From: a virus
Lineage: Duplodnaviria > Caudoviricetes
Strand: one strand, 5' to 3'
Length of the DNA stretch: 64,000 bases
IMG/VR virus record: IMGVR_UViG_3300022555_000003
Span: 128,001 to 192,000 of that record
Shown: one piece after another, positions 8,312 to 26,130 of the stretch
How positions within the stretch are numbered: position 1 is the stretch's first letter
How the letters are laid out: every line of letters starts with the position of its first letter
The notes under the pieces: generated by a model
What the model was told of the DNA's origin: nothing
The model's database searches: none
The model's input: only the letters and a program-made list of their open reading frames with translations
Program-made: the position numbers and the translations under genes

Positions 8312-8932
8312 CTATACAGTTGGTTCAACTACAGCTGGAGCCTCAGCAACTGCCTGCTTCTTGCTGCGAGCAGCCATCGCCACATTCTTGTTGTCAAGTG
8401 CCACGCCGTTAATACCAAGCTCAGGATGATTGGTAAAATACGCAACAATCTCTGCCTTGGTCATCGGATTCGGAAGCTCAACAAGGTTAATGTCAGTGTG
8501 CTTGTCCTTCTCTAGAATCTTCACACGAGATACAAGATCGTTTGCGAACCGCATCTTCATTTCGCCCTTGCGCACACTGGATCCAGCAACAGTAAACGTC
8601 CGTTCATCTGTGTCTGTAACAACCTTCGGTGCCTTTACCTTCGGAACCTTTACAGCCTTGACCTTAACTTCCTTAACTGCCTTTACCTTCGGAACCTTTA
8701 CAGCCTTGACCTTAACTTCCTTAACTGCCTTTACCTTCGGAACCTTTACATCTGTAACAGTCTCCGGAACGCCAGCAGCCTTAACCTTCGCCTTAAGCTC
8801 AGCAAGCTTTTGGCTAACAATGTTTGCCTTACTCGGTGCCTTTACAACGGGCGTCTGTGCTACAACTTCAGGCATCGGATCTGCAATTGCAGCGAAAGCC
8901 ATCGTCATTTTCTTCAAGTTCATCTTCGACAT
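8312..8932 (-). CDS. Lys/Val-rich histone-H1-like protein with globular C-terminal domain
   Basis: VKVPKVKAVKEVKVKA repeats followed by FTVAG...MRFAND...HTDINLVELP..MTK. Confidence 0.7.
   Translation of the reverse strand: MSKMNLKKMTMAFAAIADPMPEVVAQTPVVKAPSKANIVSQKLAELKAKVKAAGVPETVTDVKVPKVKAVKEVKVKAVKVPKVKAVKEVKVKAVKVPKVKAPKVVTDTDERTFTVAGSSVRKGEMKMRFANDLVSRVKILEKDKHTDINLVELPNPMTKAEIVAYFTNHPELGINGVALDNKNVAMAARSKKQAVAEAPAVVEPTV
8631..8750. repeat. 48-bp tandem repeat (about 2.5 copies)
   Basis: GCCTTTACCTTCGGAACCTTTACAGCCTTGACCTTAACTTCCTTAACT repeated in-frame. Confidence 0.9.
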
Positions 8933-14685: not shown

Positions 14686-14696
14686 TTAATATATAG

Positions 14697-14770
14697 TAGG
14701 CCTAAATGGATTTGAACCATTGATCCCTGCCTTATCAAGACAGTGCTTTAACCAACTAAGCTATAGACCT
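14697..14770 (-). tRNA. tRNA-Ile(GAU)
   Basis: CTGTC-TTGATAA-GGCAG; ends A-CTA. Confidence 0.92.
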
Positions 14771-14780
14771 AAAATTTTTT

Positions 14781-14856
14781 GCCTTCGGGGATGGATTCGA
14801 ACCACCGACGCCAGCTGTTTCAAAGCTGCGCTCTACCAAACTGAGCTACCTCGAAG
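14781..14856 (-). tRNA. tRNA-Phe(GAA)
   Basis: CAGCT-TTGAAAC-AGCTG; acceptor stem appears to carry a bulged A. Confidence 0.8.
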
Positions 14857-14867
14857 AAAACTTATAG

Positions 14868-14941
14868 TCCTGGGAGATTGATTTGAACAATCGACTTCTA
14901 TCTTATGAGGATAGCACTCTACCAAGCTGAGCTATCCCAGG
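14868..14941 (-). tRNA. tRNA-Met or Ile2 (CAU)
   Basis: CTATC-CTCATAA-GATAG; ends A-CTA. Confidence 0.9.
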
Positions 14942-14949
14942 AAAAATTG

Positions 14950-15039
14950 TGGTGATAGGTTAGAGATTCGAACTCTAAAGGGCCCTAAGGACCGCTAGTT
15001 TTACAGACTAGTGCGACCAACCGTATTCGCGTACCTATC
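14950..15039 (-). tRNA. tRNA-Tyr(GUA)
   Basis: CTAGT-CTGTAAA-ACTAG, long variable arm, ACCA end. Confidence 0.92.
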
Positions 15040-15043
15040 AAAA

Positions 15044-15120
15044 CTGGAGCCGGAGAAAGGACTTGAACCTTCAATATCCGCATTACAGGTGCGGCGCTTC
15101 GCCAATTAAGCTACCCCGGC
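15044..15120 (-). tRNA. tRNA-Thr(UGU)
   Basis: CCGCA-CCTGTAA-TGCGG (C33 rather than U33), TCCA end. Confidence 0.85.
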
Positions 15121-15243
15121 AAAAACTTTATATTAATCTTTTAACATATAATTATATTTCAACTACATACAATATAAAAATTATACGAATTTCTCATAAA
15201 GAATATCTTTCAAAAGAAAAATTACCGATTATAATATCTAATC

Positions 15244-15331
15244 TGGAGCGGCATACGTGAATTGAACACGTTTTTAATCTTTTCAGAAGCTGGGGTGGAA
15301 ACCCAGTGATCACCCAATGACCCAATGCCGC
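15244..15331 (-). tRNA. tRNA-Gly(UCC) with 18-nt variable region
   Basis: GCGGCAT/ATGCCGC-T-CCA, CTGGG-TTTCCAC-CCCAG, variable CTTCTGAAAAGATTAAAA. Confidence 0.8.
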
Positions 15332-15339
15332 TCAAATTT

Positions 15340-15413
15340 TGGCGGGACCGGAGAGAATCAAACTCTCGACTTATGGGAGACAACCAAATGGTTTATCACT
15401 AACCTACGGTCCC
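15340..15413 (-). tRNA. tRNA-Asp(GUC)
   Basis: GGGACCG/CGGTCCC-G-CCA, loop TT-GTC-TC. Confidence 0.88.
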
Positions 15414-15424
15414 AAACTTATTAC

Positions 15425-15700
15425 TTATTTATTAAATCCGTTTAACTGCTTATACTTTTCTAACAATATCAATACATCTTCTTTAGTTTGATTAGCACAT
15501 GCTAAATCAACTAAATGTTGAATAATTTTTACAGCACCTATATGACTTAAATCATATTCTTGAACTGCATCAACATATTCCCAATCTGAAGAACCTGCAG
15601 CATCTAGCTGGCTATGTTTAACTCTAACTTTAGCTGAAACTGTCATAACTTCTAAGTCAGAATTTCCCATTACATCACATACTCTTTTAATAATCTGCAT
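15425..15700 (-). CDS. hypothetical protein
   Basis: ORF between tRNA-Trp and tRNA-Asp; ATG start chosen outside the tRNA. Confidence 0.55.
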   Translation of the reverse strand: MQIIKRVCDVMGNSDLEVMTVSAKVRVKHSQLDAAGSSDWEYVDAVQEYDLSHIGAVKIIQHLVDLACANQTKEDVLILLEKYKQLNGFNK

Positions 15701-15706
15701 ATACTT

Positions 15707-15794
15707 TGGCACCCCCTGTCAGATTCGAACTGACTTGATTTTTACATCACTGGGTTTGGAGTCCAGCGCGGCACACCATCTCCGCCGAAAGGGC
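15707..15794 (-). tRNA. tRNA with Trp anticodon (CCA) and long variable arm
   Basis: GCCCTTT/AGGGGGT-G-CCA, loop CT-CCA-AA, variable TGATGTAAAAATCAA. Confidence 0.82.
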
Positions 15795-15809
15795 GATAAT
15801 AAACTTTAG

Positions 15810-15882
15810 CTCTCGGAGCAGGACTCGAACCTGAAACATCCTGGTTAACAGCCAGGCGCTCTACCAATTGAGCTATCCGAGA
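15810..15882 (-). tRNA. tRNA-Asn(GUU)
   Basis: CCTGG-CTGTTAA-CCAGG; ends G-CTA. Confidence 0.93.
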
Positions 15883-15896
15883 ATAGCAAACTTTAA

Positions 15897-16034
15897 TGTT
15901 GTCCCAGCAAGTCGATATATTTCTATACCACAACAACCCGGCCTTCGCGAAGTTGACGGCTTTTCAGCATCTGATCTCAAAGCCGAAGCTCTGACGTTTT
16001 TCCAGGTTCTTCACTCTGGTCCACGCGGATCAAC
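15897..16034 (-). ncRNA. candidate structured ncRNA in tRNA cluster
   Basis: GC-rich segment with TCAGAGC-TTCG-GCTTTGA and GGTATA-GAAA-TATATC hairpins. Confidence 0.5.
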
Positions 16035-16045
16035 AAAATTTTTAG

Positions 16046-16119
16046 TCGGAGAAGCAGGATTCGGACCTGCGATATTCTGTTCCCAAAACAGACGGATTAC
16101 CAGACTTTCCCATTCTCCG
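16046..16119 (-). tRNA. tRNA-Pro(UGG)
   Basis: CGGAGAA/TTCTCCG, TCTGT-TTTGGGA-ACAGA; ends A-CTA. Confidence 0.9.
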
Positions 16120-16154
16120 ATAACATTATTATTTATCTTTTCTATTTCTCTTTA

Positions 16155-16183
16155 ATTATAGCAGTTTTTTCATTTCCTGTCAA
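16155..16183 (-). promoter_or_regulatory. sigma70-type promoter of the tRNA operon
   Basis: TTGACA-17-TATAAT with TG extension upstream of tRNA-Pro. Confidence 0.85.
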
Positions 16184-16332
16184 ATATTTCTTCCTCAATT
16201 AAAATCATTTCATATTTTCTCTTTATCACAGTTAGTGGAGGACGTTCAATCAATGTCAGACCGTCGCAATTACATTCAAATGAACACAGGCCTGATTCAC
16301 CAATAACAGAATTACATTTTATACAATAATAA

Positions 16333-16890
16333 TTAGTTACGAACAAATTTTTGTACTCCTAAAGTTCTCAAAACCTTCTGTACTGCAATTAATTGCCTAA
16401 AACAGTCGTCCATTGCATCATGCGTTACTTTTGGCTGCTTTACTGATACCAAATCGATAATAGTTCGCGAATCTCTAACCTGCCAATATGGCCAAGGTCG
16501 AGGCATATTATATTGTGCATAAGCATGTTCGAGCATTGAGATATCAAAAGTTGTTCCTTGTGCCCAAATTCGATCAGCTTTATTCCAAATAAATTTATGC
16601 AGTTGACTCAACGCTTCTTGCAACGAAACACGTACCAAACCTTCACCAAAAATACTATCTTGGACTGCTTGATCTTGTTGGCTCCACCATTTAATAGTAT
16701 CTGGATTAATAGTCCTTGTTGGTTGAGATTCAATATCAATTAATAGATGTAGTTGGGTAAGATCATATAGCTTTACACTCGAATTTTCATAATCCTGAAA
16801 TGGATCAAAACATACCGCTGCCATTGATACGATAGTTGCATTAACACTCGTATCTAATGTTTCTAAATCTATCATTATTGAATTGCTCAT
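16333..16890 (-). CDS. DEDDh 3'-5' exonuclease (DexA-like)
   Basis: MIDLETLD, WAQGTTFD, VRDSRT, HDAMDD. Confidence 0.85.
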   Translation of the reverse strand: MSNSIMIDLETLDTSVNATIVSMAAVCFDPFQDYENSSVKLYDLTQLHLLIDIESQPTRTINPDTIKWWSQQDQAVQDSIFGEGLVRVSLQEALSQLHKFIWNKADRIWAQGTTFDISMLEHAYAQYNMPRPWPYWQVRDSRTIIDLVSVKQPKVTHDAMDDCFRQLIAVQKVLRTLGVQKFVRN

Positions 16891-16950
16891 GTATTAAGTA
16901 TAGCAGTTCATTATAGAATTGTCAAACTTAAATTGATAAATACTTGTACT

Positions 16951-17205
16951 ATGGCAGCCAACGGAATTTCAACATTATCAACGAAAGAACTTAAACAGAT
17001 TGCGAAACTGAATCTAGCACAAACCAAACGACAAGCTGGTGGTAATACTTCTCAACCATTTTATCGACCACTTAATACGTACGATATTAATTTATTACCT
17101 ACGCACTATATTGGAGATACAGTTGTAAATAATGTCCACGCAGGTGATCCAACTCCAGGGAGGCCCTGGACTAATAATTTATCACTACAGAATATGATAA
17201 ATTAA
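16951..17205 (+). CDS. small late (probably virion-associated) protein
   Basis: MAANGISTL...GRPW; GATAAATA just upstream. Confidence 0.6.
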   Translation: MAANGISTLSTKELKQIAKLNLAQTKRQAGGNTSQPFYRPLNTYDINLLPTHYIGDTVVNNVHAGDPTPGRPWTNNLSLQNMIN

Positions 17206-17236
17206 ATAATGTTTATCAAAAGGAAAAAAGGAAAAT

Positions 17237-17750
17237 ATGAAACTAATTTTATTTCTAGCGCTGGCAGGCCTGGCTCACGGACAGACGCTCAACAGTGGAT
17301 CATCGGTTCTGAATGATGCTGTGAACTCGAAAGCGCCGATTGCGAACCCGACGTTTACGGGCAACGTAACGATTGGGGCTACAGTACCCAGTAACGCACC
17401 TCCGGCAAGCCTCTCTGTAAGCGGGAACGTGTATGCCGGGACACTCCCAGTCGCAACCTTCCGCAGCGGCTGGGGCGCGCCAACGGGCAACACCGACGCG
17501 CAACTCTACCTGGATCAAGCCAGCGGAACGATTTATTTCCAGTCCAGCGGGTTGTGGGCTCCGATGTCTACTGCGACACCCGTTTACGGCTGGTATGTGG
17601 ACCCTCACTGGCGCACCCGCCTGGGCTGCTAACAGACTTTACAAGGGTTCAATCTCCCGCGCTTCCGCTGGCATTTGGGACTGCTGGTACACGGGATCGA
17701 CGCCAGCAATAACTACCGGATTGGCTATACGACGATCACTGGGCTATAGG
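17237..17750 (+). pseudogene. GC-rich signal-peptide protein gene with two apparent frameshifts
   Basis: MKLILFLALAGLAHGQT; KAPIANPTFTG tail-fibre-type repeat; plausible continuation in other frames across CCC and GGG runs. Confidence 0.55.
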
Positions 17751-17995
17751 TAACGTAAATACGCGAAAGCGTTACGAGGAATTATGAAACTTCTAATCTT
17801 CTTCTTGATCGCATCGACGGCATGGGCGCAGACCATTGCCTCAACGTCAATCGGAACCTCATGCACGTTGGCGCAGGAGGCCACAGCAAATCCGACGCAG
17901 CAGACCGTCCAGTGGACCATCCCGGCGACGTAGACGGCATTGCCGTCTACGATCTCCATAAATCCAAGAGTATCCGCGATCTCCTCCACACGCAC
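17744..17995 (-). CDS. hypothetical protein in GC-rich island
   Basis: 83 aa ORF with GC-rich codons. Confidence 0.5.
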   Translation of the reverse strand: MRVEEIADTLGFMEIVDGNAVYVAGMVHWTVCCVGFAVASCANVHEVPIDVEAMVCAHAVDAIKKKIRSFIIPRNAFAYLRYL

Positions 17996-18023
17996 TTAAA
18001 TATTTTCCGATGTTCTTCTGTCA

Positions 18024-18227
18024 TTATCTGTCCTTGTCGGTTATGGCGTAATACAAACCAAGCGTGGAGATAAATAAACTAGAAACCATAGTGAATAGCG
18101 GAGCGTAAGACACGCTCCTCCATATCGGATCTGCCCACAAGTCGGAATGTAAAACATCAATAATCATCGCAGAGTCCAACAAGATAATCACGGACCAGAA
18201 AACTACCAAAATTTTACCCTTTGTCAT
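18024..18227 (-). CDS. small membrane protein
   Basis: two hydrophobic segments; SD GAAGGTGGAG. Confidence 0.55.
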   Translation of the reverse strand: MTKGKILVVFWSVIILLDSAMIIDVLHSDLWADPIWRSVSYAPLFTMVSSLFISTLGLYYAITDKDR

Positions 18228-18301
18228 GCTCCACCTTCACATTCATTCATAAAGGTTGGCAACGCCTTAACTAATTTTGATCTGTGTTCTACATTTTCCA
18301 T

Positions 18302-18586
18302 TTAGATTCCCCACCCTCTTTTATTGATTGATCCTTCACCAGATGATGTTCGTTCACCTTCGCGAACACGTCTTAGTGTTTCAATTAATAGATGTATTGT
18401 GCATTCTTGGCATAAATCAGCGTTGTCAATTTCATAATTATTATGGTGTTCTATTTTGATTTTTAATCTATCCCAATATGTACCAAATGACTCTTGTTCA
18501 AATGTTATTGCTAACGAACGACAATTCGTTAGCAATATTTTACCACAATAATCACAATTTATTTCTGTGTTTGTGTGCCTAGACAT
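18302..18586 (-). CDS. hypothetical protein with CxxC pairs
   Basis: CDYCG...CQEC. Confidence 0.6.
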   Translation of the reverse strand: MSRHTNTEINCDYCGKILLTNCRSLAITFEQESFGTYWDRLKIKIEHHNNYEIDNADLCQECTIHLLIETLRRVREGERTSSGEGSINKRGWGI

Positions 18587-19197
18587 GTATACTTCCTAAT
18601 TGACAGAGAAATTAAACCAACACCAATTAAAAATAATGTGTTTGGTTCAGGAATAGCTGTACTATAAGACAATTTTCCAAACTCAGCAGCAGGAGAAGTA
18701 CTTGCAACTACTAATTGATTTACTGAACCTTTGGTAATATTAAATCTTACATATGATACCACACTTTGATCTCCTGTACCTGGTGGGACTAATTGAGCTC
18801 CAGTGTATTGAGCAACCAATGCAGCACCATCCCAAAGTTGAAATACATTATATGCATCGGGCGATCCTAGTAAAAATTCAATATATGTTGCTGGTGTTGT
18901 GAAAGTAATTGAAATTAAATCTGGAACTCCACATCCTCCAACCCCAATATATGTATGTGCGTAACCAGCTAATGCAGCATTACAGTTCACTTGACTTCCA
19001 GAAAAGAATGGGGCATTACCAGCAGACCAATTTCCAATTACCACATTATTAATTGTATAGGGAGATGGAGTATTATGATCTAATCCATCGAATGAAATAG
19101 TAGTTGCTCCTGGTTGACTAGTAGAATTGTTGGTAAAAGAAACTGTGGTTGCGCTAGCCAAAACTAGCGAAAATAAACTAAGCAAAAGTATTTTCAT
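18559..19197 (-). CDS. PEP-CTERM (exosortase-substrate-like) surface protein
   Basis: signal peptide plus C-terminal IPEPNTLFLIGVGLISLSIRK. Confidence 0.8.
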   Translation of the reverse strand: MKILLLSLFSLVLASATTVSFTNNSTSQPGATTISFDGLDHNTPSPYTINNVVIGNWSAGNAPFFSGSQVNCNAALAGYAHTYIGVGGCGVPDLISITFTTPATYIEFLLGSPDAYNVFQLWDGAALVAQYTGAQLVPPGTGDQSVVSYVRFNITKGSVNQLVVASTSPAAEFGKLSYSTAIPEPNTLFLIGVGLISLSIRKYTCLGTQTQK

Positions 19198-19243
19198 TAT
19201 TATCTCCAAATATTACATCGATATTTATCAAACCCAGACAAGT

Positions 19244-19516
19244 TTAAATGGTGTTGATTTCGAACTCTTTACGAATAGTATCAATAAGATTATCAATAGC
19301 CATTCGTCCACGATGATCTCCTACTTCATCACAAGCATCCCACGAGATTTCAGCTAAATTCAAAACTCGTTCTATTGATGTTAATTCAACTTGTTGTAGT
19401 AGATCAAGTACATTAGATGCTTTTATGCCATCTGGTTTCAATCCAATAATAATATCAACCACATCGGGCATATACTTATTTCTATCCATAATTTTATGCA
19501 AGTTTGAGTGGTTCAA
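19244..19516 (-). CDS. hypothetical protein
   Basis: 90 aa ORF. Confidence 0.5.
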   Translation of the reverse strand: MNHSNLHKIMDRNKYMPDVVDIIIGLKPDGIKASNVLDLLQQVELTSIERVLNLAEISWDACDEVGDHRGRMAIDNLIDTIRKEFEINTI

Positions 19517-19883
19517 TCCAAGCTGCTAGATCGCCTTCTAGAGTTGCTGGCCATTCTTCTTCTTTAATTAGACAATAAATATTATCTGGAAGAATAATTC
19601 CAACAGCAGTCAATGCACCATTTAGTGACATTTCGTCTTCTCTAAATGCAGCCCAACAATAATTATTATTAACATCTGTTTTGCAGAATGTTTCAAACTG
19701 AGCTAGTTGAGCACTATTCCCTCCATTCAAGATGATAATAGTTTTGTCATCAGTTGCCCATTGCTTGAAATGCTTATGTTTCTTCATCGCCATCTCAGAA
19801 ATAACATGAGCAGACTGAAGACCACATTGAAGTTGAGACAAATAATAATTTGTCAAAATGTAAGCTCTGTAATTTTTATTCAT
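19494..19883 (-). CDS. peptidyl-tRNA hydrolase 2-like protein
   Basis: QCGLQSAHVISEM, KQW..KTIIILNG, EDE...ALTAVGI; directly downstream of tRNA-Val. Confidence 0.6.
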   Translation of the reverse strand: MNKNYRAYILTNYYLSQLQCGLQSAHVISEMAMKKHKHFKQWATDDKTIIILNGGNSAQLAQFETFCKTDVNNNYCWAAFREDEMSLNGALTAVGIILPDNIYCLIKEEEWPATLEGDLAAWIEPLKLA

Positions 19884-19893
19884 ATAAATTTAG

Positions 19894-19967
19894 TACCCAA
19901 AATAGGACTTGAACCTACAACATCTTGCTTGTAAAGCAAGCGCTCTAACCAATTGAGCTATTCGGGT
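19894..19967 (-). tRNA. tRNA-Val(UAC)
   Basis: CTTGC-TTTACAA-GCAAG; ends A-CTA. Confidence 0.92.
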
Positions 19968-19974
19968 AATTTAG

Positions 19975-20055
19975 TAGCCCCGGGAGAAGTTGAATCTCAT
20001 ACCGTCCGCCCAACTTTAAGGATCAGTTTAGAAGACTGATGTCGGGTTCGGGGCC
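19975..20055 (-). tRNA. tRNA-like RNA with Arg(UCU) anticodon arm and no D arm
   Basis: GGCCCCG/CGGGGCT acceptor, ATCAGT-CTTCTAA-ACTGAT, GAGA-TTCAACT-TCTC, extra helix CCCGAC/GTTGGG. Confidence 0.7.
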
Positions 20056-20215
20056 ATAATTTCTAAAACGATTTAACTGTGATTCTTTGCCATTTCTTAA
20101 AACTATTCCTAAAGAATGTAATATTTTTGCAAAATTAACAGGACTTGGATGATTATATTTTTTTGCTAATTCACTAAGTGAAAACCCATCATTATCACCT
20201 TGTTTTTAAATTTAG

Positions 20216-21005: not shown

Positions 21006-21779
21006 TCAACCACCCACTGATTCTAAAATTATTTGATCTGTAATGATACTTTGACAAAGATCATTTATGGTATCAAAATCTGGATATTCTGGTAGCATCT
21101 TGAGATTAGCTGCTTTTTGAGCATTATCTAATTCATTATCTACTAATAATATCCAATCACTTAGAGAAAGTCCGCCATTTCGAATATAAAGCAATTCATC
21201 AGCATCATTTCTAAAAATATTCATCTTTCCACTTAGGAAGAATTCAGTTGCCATCCTTAAAATTCGAATAGTATGCATGGCATATTTCACATCATACCCA
21301 TATTTTTCAACTAATAGCTTTCGTTTTGTACCTAGTTTTCCAGTAATGCAATTAACAACAGCATTTCTTTGACTTTGTGAATATCCAATAAGTGTGTTGT
21401 ATGCTTGTTGACTTTCAAATGCTTGTCGATTTTTGATTAAACTTTTTCCTTCGGGAGTAATAATAGTATATTCATGATCTCTCAAATATAGCAAAGGAAT
21501 AACATTTGGATTAAACTTAATACACAATTTCAAAAATTTTCGTAGTTCAAAAATAGTTGATTCTGCATTGATAGTTTCCTTTTTGTCTAGGACAAAAGTA
21601 TCTTCACCAGCAACAAGTCCAGTATAATACGAATTGGGTTTTAGAATAATACCCAAGAAGTCTACATCAGAATCTTCTGTGGCTGCTCCGTAAGATTGTG
21701 AACCAACTTGTCCAACAAGGATATACTTTCCCGACTCCTTAGGAAGGTTAAAATTTACATTATATTCTTCTGTGGTCAT
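21006..21779 (-). CDS. RlaP-like Pol-beta nucleotidyltransferase
   Basis: GSQSYGAATEDSDVD, NPNVIPLLY, YDVKYAMHTIR. Confidence 0.8.
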   Translation of the reverse strand: MTTEEYNVNFNLPKESGKYILVGQVGSQSYGAATEDSDVDFLGIILKPNSYYTGLVAGEDTFVLDKKETINAESTIFELRKFLKLCIKFNPNVIPLLYLRDHEYTIITPEGKSLIKNRQAFESQQAYNTLIGYSQSQRNAVVNCITGKLGTKRKLLVEKYGYDVKYAMHTIRILRMATEFFLSGKMNIFRNDADELLYIRNGGLSLSDWILLVDNELDNAQKAANLKMLPEYPDFDTINDLCQSIITDQIILESVGG

Positions 21780-25776: not shown

Positions 25777-26130
25777 TTATTACTACTTTAACTTATTATC
25801 AATAATTATGTTATCAGCTATTTGTCGAACACTTTCATTATATCCATTTCCACCACAGTATTTTGCTAGAAAATCATATTCACCTGTGATGCCTGCCCAC
25901 ACTTCTGTGGTTTCAAGAGCATCCATTCTATCTTTATCTGTAAGTAGAAATGTATAAAACAATATCACGCAAATCTTCAACGGTTATTATATTTAATCCG
26001 ATCGTACCAACCTACTATACAGTCTGGATTATTCCCTTTTGGTTTCTGATCTAAATATAATTTAAGTTTATCGGTTGCGTTCTGCCCTGACATAATTATA
26101 TCGGGTATTAATGCCATAGTATTCACCCAT

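What the first reader, a model, noticed from the sequence alone, without database searches (positions are those of the whole stretch)
19975..20055. tRNA-like RNA with rearranged topology: no D arm, extra helix under an Arg(UCU) anticodon arm
Seen: intact 7-bp acceptor, T arm and 6-bp anticodon stem with a canonical CU-UCU-AA loop. The D-arm position holds only AACCCGAC, whose CCCGAC pairs with GTTGGG located 3' of the anticodon arm, followed by CGGACGGTA containing GG. Inference: D-loop-like GG may have moved to the variable side. The fully paired helices argue against simple decay; it may be a functional AGA decoder, a nuclease-resistant tRNA or a decoy.
Basis: partly seen in the sequence, partly recalled or inferred. 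Interest (0 to 1): 0.75.

Follow-up and report, generated by a model that had tools for sequence, protein, structure and literature searches.

The report
Rewired phage arginine tRNA gene
This 81-base gene is most likely the phage's only arginine tRNA (for the codon AGA), built on a conserved non-cloverleaf plan in which the D arm is re-formed from two strands on either side of the anticodon arm; I could not find this plan in the literature I searched, gene finders miss it, and it is present in hundreds of sequenced phages.

Summary
On the minus strand of 19975-20055 lie a 7-bp acceptor stem, a 6-bp anticodon stem with loop CUUCUAA, a 4-bp T stem with loop UUCAACU, no D hairpin, and a helix CCCGAC/GUUGGG that encloses the anticodon arm. 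ARAGORN and Rfam do not call it.

It is not decay. I collected 47 distinct relatives of this layout ("type A") from IMG/VR phage contigs. All four helices covary, including all 6 pairs of the extra helix. 37 of the 47 encode CCA, and most of those examined sit in tRNA arrays.

A sister layout ("type B", 38 distinct) keeps U8, A9 and a D-loop-like UAAUUGGA after the anticodon arm. It reads as a normal tRNA whose nucleotides 10-21 were moved to between positions 47 and 48.

Anticodons are almost all arginine (UCU, CCU, ACG, UCG). The moved motif keeps GGA, matching A20, the main ArgRS determinant.

The window's genome has canonical tRNAs for every amino acid except Arg, with Trp found only at a relaxed setting. 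AGA is its commonest Arg codon.

The family also occurs, mostly unannotated, in Felix O1, Acinetobacter phage ME3, Streptomyces phage Mildred21 and 263 GenBank phage records.

Earlier agents of this scan reached the same reading on other phages. Expression and charging remain untested.

The parts
19975..20055 (-). Whole gene: rewired (D-arm-permuted) tRNA-Arg(UCU), type A, 81 nt including the discriminator
   Evidence: Covariance model R1 scores it 86.4 bits, E 2e-23. It is the only such hit in the 242-kb genome.
20049..20055 (-). Acceptor stem, 5' strand GGCCCCG
   Evidence: Pairs with 19976-19982. All 7 acceptor pairs covary in the family.
20047..20048 (-). A8 and linker A9. A8 faces the extra C at 19983 as A.C. 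In most relatives this position is a G-C eighth pair.
   Evidence: Pair column 8/82 in A3: GC 34, AU 2, UA 1, unpaired 10.
20041..20046 (-). Extra helix, 5' strand CCCGAC, continuous with the anticodon stem. By inference it takes the place of D-stem strand 22-25.
   Evidence: All 6 pairs have changes on both sides: 89% paired on the model-fitted alignment, 82% on MAFFT alone.
20022..20040 (-). Anticodon arm: stem AUCAGU/ACUGAU, loop CUUCUAA, anticodon UCU at 20030-20032
   Evidence: The stem covaries in relatives, e.g. AUCGGU/ACCGAU in L448.
20015..20021 (-). 3' bulge CCUUAAA between the anticodon stem and the extra helix. By inference it is equivalent to positions 44-47.
   Evidence: Length is 6-11 nt in relatives; the consensus begins uCC and holds an A-rich centre.
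20009..20014 (-). Extra helix, 3' strand GUUGGG. By inference it takes the place of D-stem strand 10-13.
19999..20008 (-). Relocated D-loop-like segment C-GGA-C-GG-UAU. The GGA at 20005-20007 is inferred to be G18 G19 A20.
   Evidence: GGA is kept in 46 of 47 type A members. GG followed by A occurs in 88% of canonical phage tRNA-Arg and in 3-20% of other tRNA classes.
19984..19998 (-). T arm: 4-bp stem GAGA/UCUC and loop UUCAACU
   Evidence: All 4 pairs covary, 98.9% paired. The window's A-U closing pair is a compensated change from the G-C of L448.
19983..19983 (-). Conserved C between the T stem and the acceptor 3' strand, partner of position 8
19975..19982 (-). Acceptor stem 3' strand CGGGGCU plus discriminator A
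   Evidence: The discriminator is A, G or U, never C, in 47 relatives.
19972..19974 (-). CUA where most relatives encode CCA
   Evidence: 37 of 47 relatives have CCA here. The nearest ones, L009 and L448, have CCA. The same CUA follows several other tRNAs of this phage.

Best explanation
It is a working tRNA gene, the phage's tRNA-Arg for AGA, on a rewired plan.

Shown:
- The acceptor stem, anticodon arm and T arm are ordinary.
- There is no D hairpin.
- The strand right after positions 8-9 runs straight into the anticodon stem and pairs with a strand that follows the anticodon arm.
- After that strand comes a short segment with a conserved GGA, then the T arm.

Inferred:
- The helix sits where the D stem sits and stacks on the anticodon stem.
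- The GGA segment sits where the D loop sits. Its two G would contact the T loop, and its A would be read as A20.
- The L shape is therefore kept although the chain is threaded differently. In effect, nucleotides 10-21 have moved to between 47 and 48. This is plainest in the sister type B.
- The gene is transcribed with the neighbouring tRNA-Lys and tRNA-Val, cut out by RNase P and 3' nucleases, and given CCA by a nucleotidyltransferase.
- It is charged by the host ArgRS through the A20-like A, C35, U36 and A73, and it reads AGA on host ribosomes.

Why phages keep this plan is not known. Escape from a tRNA-directed nuclease is one possibility.
For: 1. Family and covariation. There are 47 distinct type A relatives. 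94.9% of cells are paired, against 35-52% when partners are slid, and 22 of 24 pairs show double changes. A MAFFT-only alignment gives 89.3%. RNAalifold predicts the same four helices from that alignment.

2. tRNA hallmarks.
- CCA is encoded right after the discriminator in 37 of 47 type A and 23 of 38 type B members.
- Members lie in tRNA arrays, on the same strand as their neighbours and 5-50 nt from them.
- Similarity to the near-identical L009 starts at the acceptor 5' end.

3. Arginine only.
- A scan free of any anticodon requirement gave type B anticodons UCU 21, ACG 7, UCG 4, CCU 3, GAU 3.
- A complete anticodon-free scan for type A gave 42 UCU, 4 CCU and 1 GUA.
- Contig L410 carries four type B genes with UCU, CCU, ACG and UCG.

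4. Identity elements. GGA is kept in 46/47 and 37/38 members. The base after the D-loop GG is A in 88% of 146 canonical phage tRNA-Arg and in 3-20% of other classes. Bacterial Arg identity is A20 (the main element), C35, U/G36 and A/G/U73 (PMC9976931). The window's gene has all of these.

5. It fills the gap.
- The window's genome has 20 canonical tRNAs covering every amino acid except Arg and Trp. A Trp tRNA appears at ARAGORN's relaxed setting.
- AGA is the commonest Arg codon, 16.2 per 1000.
- Mildred21's only canonical Arg tRNA is CCU. Its rewired genes add UCU, UCG and ACG.

6. No ArgRS core domain is found in five carrier phage genomes, with the positive control at 14 of 14. So a host enzyme would have to charge it.

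7. E. coli's translation machinery accepts even a tRNA with no D arm at all (PMC11551756).
Against: - There are no expression, processing, aminoacylation or decoding data. No RNA run holding this DNA could be listed.
- The equivalence of the GGA segment to G18-G19-A20, and the preserved L shape, are inferred from sequence logic, not from a model or from probing.
- The window's copy has a weak first pair (G.U), an A.C at the eighth position, a 4-bp T stem with an A-U closing pair in place of the usual G53-C61, and CUA instead of CCA.
- The 3' half can also form GGA(C)GG/UCUCC, which competes with the T stem in the single-sequence fold.
- The genome record is estimated to be only 74% complete, so a canonical tRNA-Arg could lie in the missing part.
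- PNPase limited the use of an engineered D-armless tRNA in E. coli, so stability is not a given.
Confidence: 0.78

Rival explanations
1. A tRNA look-alike that is made and folded but does not decode. It could be a decoy or sponge that draws a host tRNA-Arg-directed nuclease, or another tRNA-binding defence protein, away from the real tRNAs. Alternatively it could be a regulatory RNA.
For: The fold departs from every tRNA that bacterial enzymes normally meet. The anticodon loop is kept extremely constant, as a bait would be. RNA-repair-type genes lie nearby: an RlaP-family nucleotidyltransferase at 21006-21779, and an RNA ligase and polynucleotide kinase in Mildred21.
Against: A decoy has no need of encoded CCA, a covarying acceptor stem, an A/G/U discriminator and the A20-like A all together. 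It would not need to come in exactly the isoacceptors that the canonical set of the same phage lacks. The four different Arg anticodons in one contig fit decoding better than baiting.
Confidence: 0.1
2. A decoding tRNA that is charged with something other than arginine, or that is charged poorly, so that AGA is read differently or slowly in phage genes.
For: Rare members carry non-Arg anticodons on the same scaffold: GAU in L262, L292, L276 and Mildred21 73703-73779, and GUA in L506. Metazoan mitochondrial D-armless tRNAs read AGN as serine (own knowledge).
Against: All known bacterial Arg determinants are present, and the GGA signature is Arg-specific among phage tRNAs. No long variable arm or G3.U70 is present to attract SerRS, LeuRS or AlaRS. 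Carrier phages have hosts with the standard code.
Confidence: 0.05
3. A precursor that is cut and re-joined into an ordinary cloverleaf tRNA.
For: RNA ligase, kinase and nucleotidyltransferase genes are common in these phages. Permuted tRNA genes that mature through re-joining exist in a red alga (own knowledge).
Against: The 5' and 3' ends already pair as an acceptor stem with CCA, so no circular permutation is involved. Restoring the canonical order would take three cuts and three ligations. The extra helix covaries as a helix of the final molecule.
Confidence: 0.03
4. A decayed tRNA-Arg gene that lost its D arm, with chance complementarity.
For: Gene finders reject it. A start-less open frame overlaps its first 30 nt, and homing endonuclease genes often flank family members.
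Against: There are 47 + 38 distinct relatives with compensatory changes in every helix. DNA runs from four studies dated 2016-2020 hold all sampled words of the 571-nt stretch containing it, though they may include the source sample. Matches at 80% identity or more to the Felix O1 member are found in 263 GenBank phage records.
Confidence: 0.02

Closest known systems
Canonical bacterial and phage tRNA-Arg(UCU), e.g. E. coli argU or T4 tRNA-Arg (own knowledge), and the about 85 canonical phage copies in loci L013-L121
   Same: Same anticodon loop CUUCUAA, same T loop, same acceptor and discriminator rules, and GG followed by A as the arginine signature. Same position in phage tRNA arrays.
   Different: There is no D hairpin between positions 9 and 26. 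The D-stem-like helix is made of a strand before and a strand after the anticodon arm, and the GGA segment lies before the T arm. In type A there are 8 + 4 rather than 7 + 5 pairs in the acceptor/T branch. Model R1 gives canonical tRNAs at most 29 bits and family members at least 53 bits.
Metazoan mitochondrial D-armless tRNA-Ser(AGY/AGN) (PMC4013460, PMC9427863; details from own knowledge)
   Same: No D hairpin, a three-way junction, an anticodon stem lengthened by pairs between the D-replacement stretch and the variable side, and an anticodon for AGN codons.
   Different: The mitochondrial tRNAs have lost the D-loop/T-loop contact and need adapted partners. Here a GGA or AAUUGGA D-loop motif is kept and relocated, the T loop is canonical, the identity is arginine, and the users would be ordinary bacterial enzymes. 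Not a member.
Type B rewired phage tRNA-Arg (Felix O1 25951-26029; Mildred21 86379-86453, 91367-91442, 94857-94933)
   Same: Same topology and same arginine restriction.
   Different: Type B keeps U8-A9, a 7/5 branch, a 3-bp helix plus a U.N pair, and a full D-loop-like UAAUUGGA...AU. The window's type A has an 8/4-like branch, a 5-6-bp helix and only nGGAnGG. Each model scores the other type at only 18-34 bits.
8/4 and 9/3 tRNAs (allo-tRNAs, some phage tRNA-Ser/His; Mukai et al. 2017, from memory)
   Same: Most type A members have an eighth acceptor pair and a 4-bp T stem.
   Different: Those tRNAs keep a normal D arm. In the window the eighth position is A.C.
Engineered D-armless mini HisT in E. 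coli (PMC11551756)
   Same: It shows that the bacterial synthetase, EF-Tu and ribosome can use a tRNA without a D hairpin.
   Different: It is artificial, has no replacement helix or D-loop motif, and needed a pnp mutation to be usable.

Membership tests
Canonical cloverleaf tRNA (Rfam RF00005) | 7-bp acceptor stem, discriminator, 3' CCA (encoded or added) | tested here: met
   CCA is encoded in 37 of 47 relatives; the window has CUA.
Canonical cloverleaf tRNA (Rfam RF00005) | Anticodon arm with a 7-nt loop, U33 and a purine at 37 | tested here: met
   Loop CUUCUAA.
Canonical cloverleaf tRNA (Rfam RF00005) | T arm with a UUCRA loop | tested here: met
   Loop UUCAACU with a 4-bp stem.
Canonical cloverleaf tRNA (Rfam RF00005) | D hairpin between positions 9 and 26 | tested here: not met
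   Only 8 nt lie between the acceptor and anticodon stems.
Canonical cloverleaf tRNA (Rfam RF00005) | Reaches the family's score, or is called by a tRNA finder | tested here: not met
   No Rfam match at E up to 10. ARAGORN is silent in four modes.
Rewired phage tRNA-Arg, type A (family defined here, model R1) | Covarying helix that encloses the anticodon arm, a 3' bulge, nGGAnGG before a 4-bp T stem, and a conserved C before the acceptor 3' strand | tested here: met
   86.4 bits against R1. The window was one of the 12 seed sequences, so its own score is not independent; the other 35 relatives are.
Bacterial tRNA-Arg identity set (PMC9976931) | C35, U/G36 and A/G/U73 | tested here: met
   UCU anticodon and A discriminator.
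Bacterial tRNA-Arg identity set (PMC9976931) | A20 in the D loop | tested here: inconclusive
   An A follows a conserved GG. That it occupies the place of position 20 in the folded RNA is an inference.
Bacterial tRNA-Arg identity set (PMC9976931) | Arginylation by ArgRS | not testable with these tools
   Needs an aminoacylation assay.
Mitochondrial D-armless tRNA-Ser(AGY/N) | Encoded in a metazoan mitochondrial genome, serine identity, loss of the D-loop/T-loop contact | tested here: not met
   The record is a phage with a GGA motif and a canonical T loop.

The most novel reading that the evidence does not exclude
The rewiring is a counter-defence or takeover device. The L shape and all arginine determinants are kept but the backbone is re-threaded through the D region. 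These tRNAs could therefore stay usable by ArgRS and the ribosome while escaping a nuclease, or another tRNA-binding factor, that recognises the canonical D arm or elbow of tRNA-Arg. That factor could belong to the host or to the phage itself. On this reading phages keep AGA/CGN decoding going while the cell's own tRNA-Arg is attacked.
Probability: 0.2. Interest if true: 0.92.

Novelty: new variant of a known kind. Interest (0 to 1): 0.8.

Why it matters
[quoted passage not shown] If these genes make working tRNAs, ordinary bacterial ArgRS, EF-Tu, RNase P, CCA-adding enzyme and ribosomes routinely use a tRNA whose core is threaded differently.

That would give a natural test of which parts of the tRNA core must be contiguous. 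It would also offer a scaffold for orthogonal tRNA design.

It would correct many phage annotations. Most records examined leave the gene blank, a few place it under a hypothetical-protein or HNH endonuclease CDS, and three give it a different tRNA label (tRNA-Phe and tRNA-OTHER in Mildred21, tRNA-Leu in 121Q). Counts of phage tRNAs and of 'missing' Arg tRNAs are therefore biased.

The question is directly testable, because carriers include Felix O1-like phages that grow on E. coli K-12 and Salmonella.

Tried and rejected
- ARAGORN standard, -mt, -mtx, -ps and -i modes, and Rfam at gathering score and at E up to 10, made no call on the element.
- The search for related loci with the downstream 129-aa protein found no relatives.
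- blastn of the 801-nt region against GenBank phages matched only the flanking canonical tRNAs.
- The pattern GGAAGG..TTCGATTC returned mainly canonical tRNAs. R1 scored them at 29 bits or less.
- Sequencing runs: no RNA holder was listed. This is not evidence either way.
- The 60-codon start-less frame at 20026-20205(-), which overlaps the gene's first 30 nt, has no Pfam family. The near-identical L009 does not share this upstream flank. I read it as a remnant or chance frame, not as the reason for the conservation.
- An R2 match of 34 bits at genome 49996-50060 is a class II tRNA-Ser(CGA) with a normal D arm.
- 24 prokaryote genomes of one small phylum had no R2 match. This is uninformative.
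- Eight literature searches found no description of a phage or bacterial tRNA with this wiring. The library lacks most subscription journals, so this is not proof of novelty.
- Rejected readings: decayed gene, intron-containing tRNA, circularly permuted gene (see rivals).

Full report
**What is there.** The window is part of a 242-kb phage record from IMG/VR with inverted terminal repeats, estimated 74% complete. Its DNA is held by freshwater and lake metagenome runs. On the minus strand, 20055 down to 19975 reads as follows:
- GGCCCCG: acceptor stem, 5' strand
- AA: positions 8-9
- CCCGAC: extra helix, 5' strand
- AUCAGU: anticodon stem, 5' strand
- CUUCUAA: anticodon loop
- ACUGAU: anticodon stem, 3' strand
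- CCUUAAA: bulge
- GUUGGG: extra helix, 3' strand
- CGGACGGUAU: GGA segment
- GAGA: T stem, 5' strand
- UUCAACU: T loop
- UCUC: T stem, 3' strand
- C: extra base facing A8
- CGGGGCU: acceptor stem, 3' strand
- A: discriminator

The T stem has only 4 pairs. The base after the acceptor 5' strand (A8) faces an extra C before the acceptor 3' strand. The single-sequence fold gives the acceptor stem, the extra helix and the anticodon stem at -27.6 kcal/mol (z = -2.57). It draws the 3' part differently.

The gene lies 7 nt upstream of tRNA-Val and 159 nt downstream of tRNA-Lys, on the same strand, inside a tRNA cluster. ARAGORN does not report it in five modes, and Rfam does not report it at E up to 10.

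**Relatives of the same layout (type A).** The exact anticodon arm, looser anticodon-arm patterns and a T-arm pattern were scanned against IMG/VR. A covariance model, R1, was built from the first 12 sequences. It found 48 matches (47 distinct) at 53-98 bits. Canonical tRNAs in 860 kb of control loci reach at most 29 bits.

On the model-fitted alignment:
- 94.9% of the 1128 cells are standard pairs, against 35-52% when partners are slid by 1-3 columns.
- 22 of 24 pairs show changes on both sides.
- All 6 pairs of the extra helix covary.

That alignment is fitted to the structure, so I repeated the count on a plain MAFFT alignment:
- 89.3% of cells are paired, and 82.3% in the extra helix.
- Again 6 of 6 pairs of the extra helix show double changes.
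- Slid controls give 35-55%.

RNAalifold predicts the same four helices from that alignment, unprompted.

The window's own oddities are compensated changes. Its relative L448 has AUCGGU/ACCGAU and GAGG/CCUC where the window has AUCAGU/ACUGAU and GAGA/UCUC.

**tRNA hallmarks.**
- CCA follows the discriminator in 37 of 47 type A members. The discriminator is A, G or U, never C.
- Of the first 18 members examined, 13 had ARAGORN-called tRNAs in the fetched locus, on the same strand as the member; in several the nearest one is only 5-50 nt away.
- The near-identical copy in L009 has a different upstream flank, so similarity begins at the first acceptor base.
- In 34 of 47 members position 8 is G and pairs with the conserved C before the acceptor 3' strand. 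Three members have A-U or U-A there. Most of the family therefore has 8 + 4 pairs in the acceptor/T branch. The window's clade has A.C.

**The sister layout (type B) explains the wiring.** A scan that named only a D-loop-like word and the T loop, with no anticodon, returned a second group. Model R2 found 40 matches (38 distinct) in 100 loci. 94.7% of cells are paired, against 41-45% slid, and all four helices covary.

The MAFFT alignment shows, in order:
- invariant U8 and A9;
- one base;
- three bases that pair with three bases after the anticodon arm;
- one base;
- a 5-bp anticodon arm;
- a bulge of 4-16 nt;
- the three partner bases;
- U-AAUUGGA;
- a few bases;
- an invariant A-U directly before a 5-bp T stem.

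Read with standard numbering, the stretch after the anticodon arm is 10-13, A14 A15 Y16 Y17 G18 G19 A20 ... A21, then U48. The stretch after A9 is 22-25 and 26.

Type B is therefore a normal tRNA in which nucleotides 10-21 have been moved from between 9 and 22 to between 47 and 48. In the known tRNA structure (own knowledge) position 9 lies against 23, position 45 against the 10-25 pair, and A21 next to the 15-48 pair. The three new joints thus connect neighbours in space.

This is an inference from sequence, not a model. Type A is a further-derived form: a longer helix, the D-loop motif reduced to nGGAnGG, and an 8/4 branch.

**Arginine.** Type B anticodons, from the anticodon-free scan, are UCU 21, ACG 7, UCG 4, CCU 3 and GAU 3. 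A complete, anticodon-free scan for the type A T-arm signature returned 54 stretches. Of these, 46 parse as rewired, with 42 UCU and 4 CCU. One further stretch, not resolved by the automatic parse and read by eye, carries GUA. Contig L410 has four type B genes with UCU, CCU, ACG and UCG.

GGA is kept in 46 of 47 type A and 37 of 38 type B members. Among 1444 distinct canonical tRNAs called in the fetched phage loci, the base after the D-loop GG is A in 88% of the 146 tRNA-Arg. It is A in 3-20% of every other class. The review PMC9976931 gives A20 as the main determinant for bacterial ArgRS, together with C35, U/G36 and A/G/U73. The window's gene has all of these. The loop also has the 36-UAA-38 that PMC13276492 names as required for t6A37 (abstract shown).

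No ArgRS catalytic domain is found in the window's genome, Felix O1, ME3, Mildred21 or the Nitrincola phage. The same search found it in 14 of 14 control genomes.

**It fills the gap in the tRNA set.** ARAGORN finds 20 canonical tRNAs in the 242-kb record, covering 18 amino acids. With the Trp gene seen at the relaxed setting, only Arg is missing. AGA is the commonest Arg codon in long open frames: 16.2 per 1000, against 1.3-6.9 for each of the other Arg codons. R1 finds this one gene and no other in the genome.

In Streptomyces phage Mildred21 the only canonical Arg tRNA is CCU. Rewired genes supply UCU, UCG and ACG. In L035, L037 and L004 the rewired UCU gene sits beside canonical Arg tRNAs with other anticodons.

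**Cultured phages and annotation.**
- Type A occurs in Acinetobacter phage vB_AbaM_ME3 (79.6 bits) and in Nitrincola phage 1M3-16 (68.3 bits). Both copies are unannotated and lie just upstream of tRNA-Met.
- Type B occurs in Felix O1 at 25951-26029, with UCU and encoded CCA. It is unannotated and partly covered by an HNH endonuclease CDS.
- Type B occurs in Vibrio phage K406, under a 30-aa 'hypothetical protein'.
- Type B occurs four times in Mildred21. One copy is annotated tRNA-OTHER. One is annotated tRNA-Phe(gaa), which takes the bulge UUGAAAC for an anticodon loop. Two are unannotated.
- The Felix O1 copy has matches of 80% identity or more in 263 GenBank phage records: Escherichia 138, Salmonella 54, Klebsiella 40 and others. 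Of the 25 sampled rows, 19 have no annotated feature under the match.
- The Felix O1 copy has no match in 5,426 complete E. coli genomes.

**How it most likely works.**
- Shown: the sequence, the four covarying helices, the CCA, the array context, the arginine-only anticodons, the kept GGA, the gap in the canonical set, and the absence of a phage ArgRS.
- Inferred: co-transcription with neighbours; 5' cutting by RNase P on the intact acceptor/T branch; 3' trimming and CCA addition, which the window's CUA makes necessary; an L shape with the extra helix stacked on the anticodon stem in the D-stem position and the GG on the T loop; charging by host ArgRS; decoding of AGA.

PMC11551756 reports that E. 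coli HisRS, EF-Tu and the ribosome accept a tRNA with no D arm at all, and that PNPase decay was the limit. This makes use of a better-preserved fold plausible.

The selective reason is open. It could be escape from a nuclease that reads the D arm. It could be neutral spread with the homing endonuclease genes that often flank these genes. Or it could be something else.

**Rivals.**
- Decay is excluded by the covariation.
- A decoy does not need CCA, identity elements and a full isoacceptor set.
- Re-joining into a cloverleaf would take three cuts and three ligations, and the ends already pair.
- Charging with another amino acid is not excluded but has no support for the UCU members. The rare GAU and GUA members are unexplained.

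**Comparison with what is known.** The nearest functional relative is canonical phage tRNA-Arg(UCU). The nearest structural precedent is the metazoan mitochondrial D-armless tRNA-Ser for AGY/AGN, which also lengthens the anticodon stem. That tRNA has lost the D-loop motif and needs adapted partners.

Eight full-text searches and two reviews of non-canonical tRNAs gave no description of this wiring. The library lacks most subscription journals.

Earlier agents of this scan reported the same family on other phages. I confirmed the Felix O1 case myself. Their notes are not independent evidence.

**Verdict.** This is a member of a large, conserved, arginine-specific family of rewired phage tRNA genes. 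Expression and charging are untested.

Noticed in passing
window 14694-20215 (3' ends of tRNA-Ile, Met, Asn, Pro, Val, Lys and the rewired Arg): Seven tRNA genes, this one included, are followed by N73-CTA instead of CCA. Tyr, Thr, Gly, Asp, Trp and Gln encode CCA. The nearest relatives of the Arg gene (L009, L448) have CCA. The same single change recurring is odd. It may mark a processing signal or a dependence on a CCA-adding or repairing enzyme.
   Followed up: partly
window 15244-15331 and 15707-15794, minus strand: tRNA-Gly(UCC) of 88 nt has an unpaired variable region of about 18 nt. A tRNA-Trp(CCA) of 88 nt has a long variable arm; ARAGORN calls it only at its relaxed setting and Rfam misses it at gathering score. 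Both classes normally have short variable loops.
   Followed up: no
window 20026-20205, minus strand: A 60-codon open frame without a start codon (…SLSELAKKYNHPSPVNFAKILHSLGIVLRNGK…) runs into the first 30 nt of the tRNA gene. Just upstream in the -1 frame lie AAGGTG, ATGATG and a G-GGT-TTT slippery-type heptamer. It has no Pfam family. It is possibly the remnant of a homing endonuclease DNA-binding tail.
   Followed up: partly
window 21006-21779 and 19494-19883, minus strand: The neighbours are an RlaP-family (PF10127) RNA-repair-type nucleotidyltransferase and a protein with a weak match to peptidyl-tRNA hydrolase PTH2 (phrog_3668 'hydrolase'). The tRNA cluster is thus embedded in tRNA-handling genes.
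   Followed up: partly
L262:10605-10681, L292:193-271, L276:2428-2504, Mildred21 MF155946 73703-73779; L506: A few genes on the rewired scaffold carry non-arginine anticodons: GAU (Ile) in four type B members and GUA (Tyr) in one type A member. ArgRS should reject them for lack of C35. Their identity is unexplained.
   Followed up: no
L007, L030, L034, L049, L055, L083, L103, L118 (viral contigs): Another group of phage tRNAs with the UCU anticodon keeps a D arm but has a long, paired variable arm, which canonical tRNA-Arg lacks.
   Followed up: no
MF155946.1 91367-91442 and 86379-86453; KM507819.1 73587-73660: Public annotations of family members appear wrong or undecided: tRNA-Phe(gaa) and tRNA-OTHER in Mildred21, and tRNA-Leu in phage 121Q. 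The 121Q case was seen only in the hit table.
   Followed up: partly
L410 (IMGVR_UViG_3300035661_000143) 1601-1676, 1742-1819, 2493-2571, 8617-8694, minus strand: One contig carries four rewired tRNA-Arg genes covering the CCU, UCU, ACG and UCG anticodons.
   Followed up: partly
own genome G000:C1:235496-235856 (outside the window): ARAGORN calls a permuted tmRNA with the tag DTTNNWIATGSYDFSNEDVLA. Not checked.
   Followed up: no
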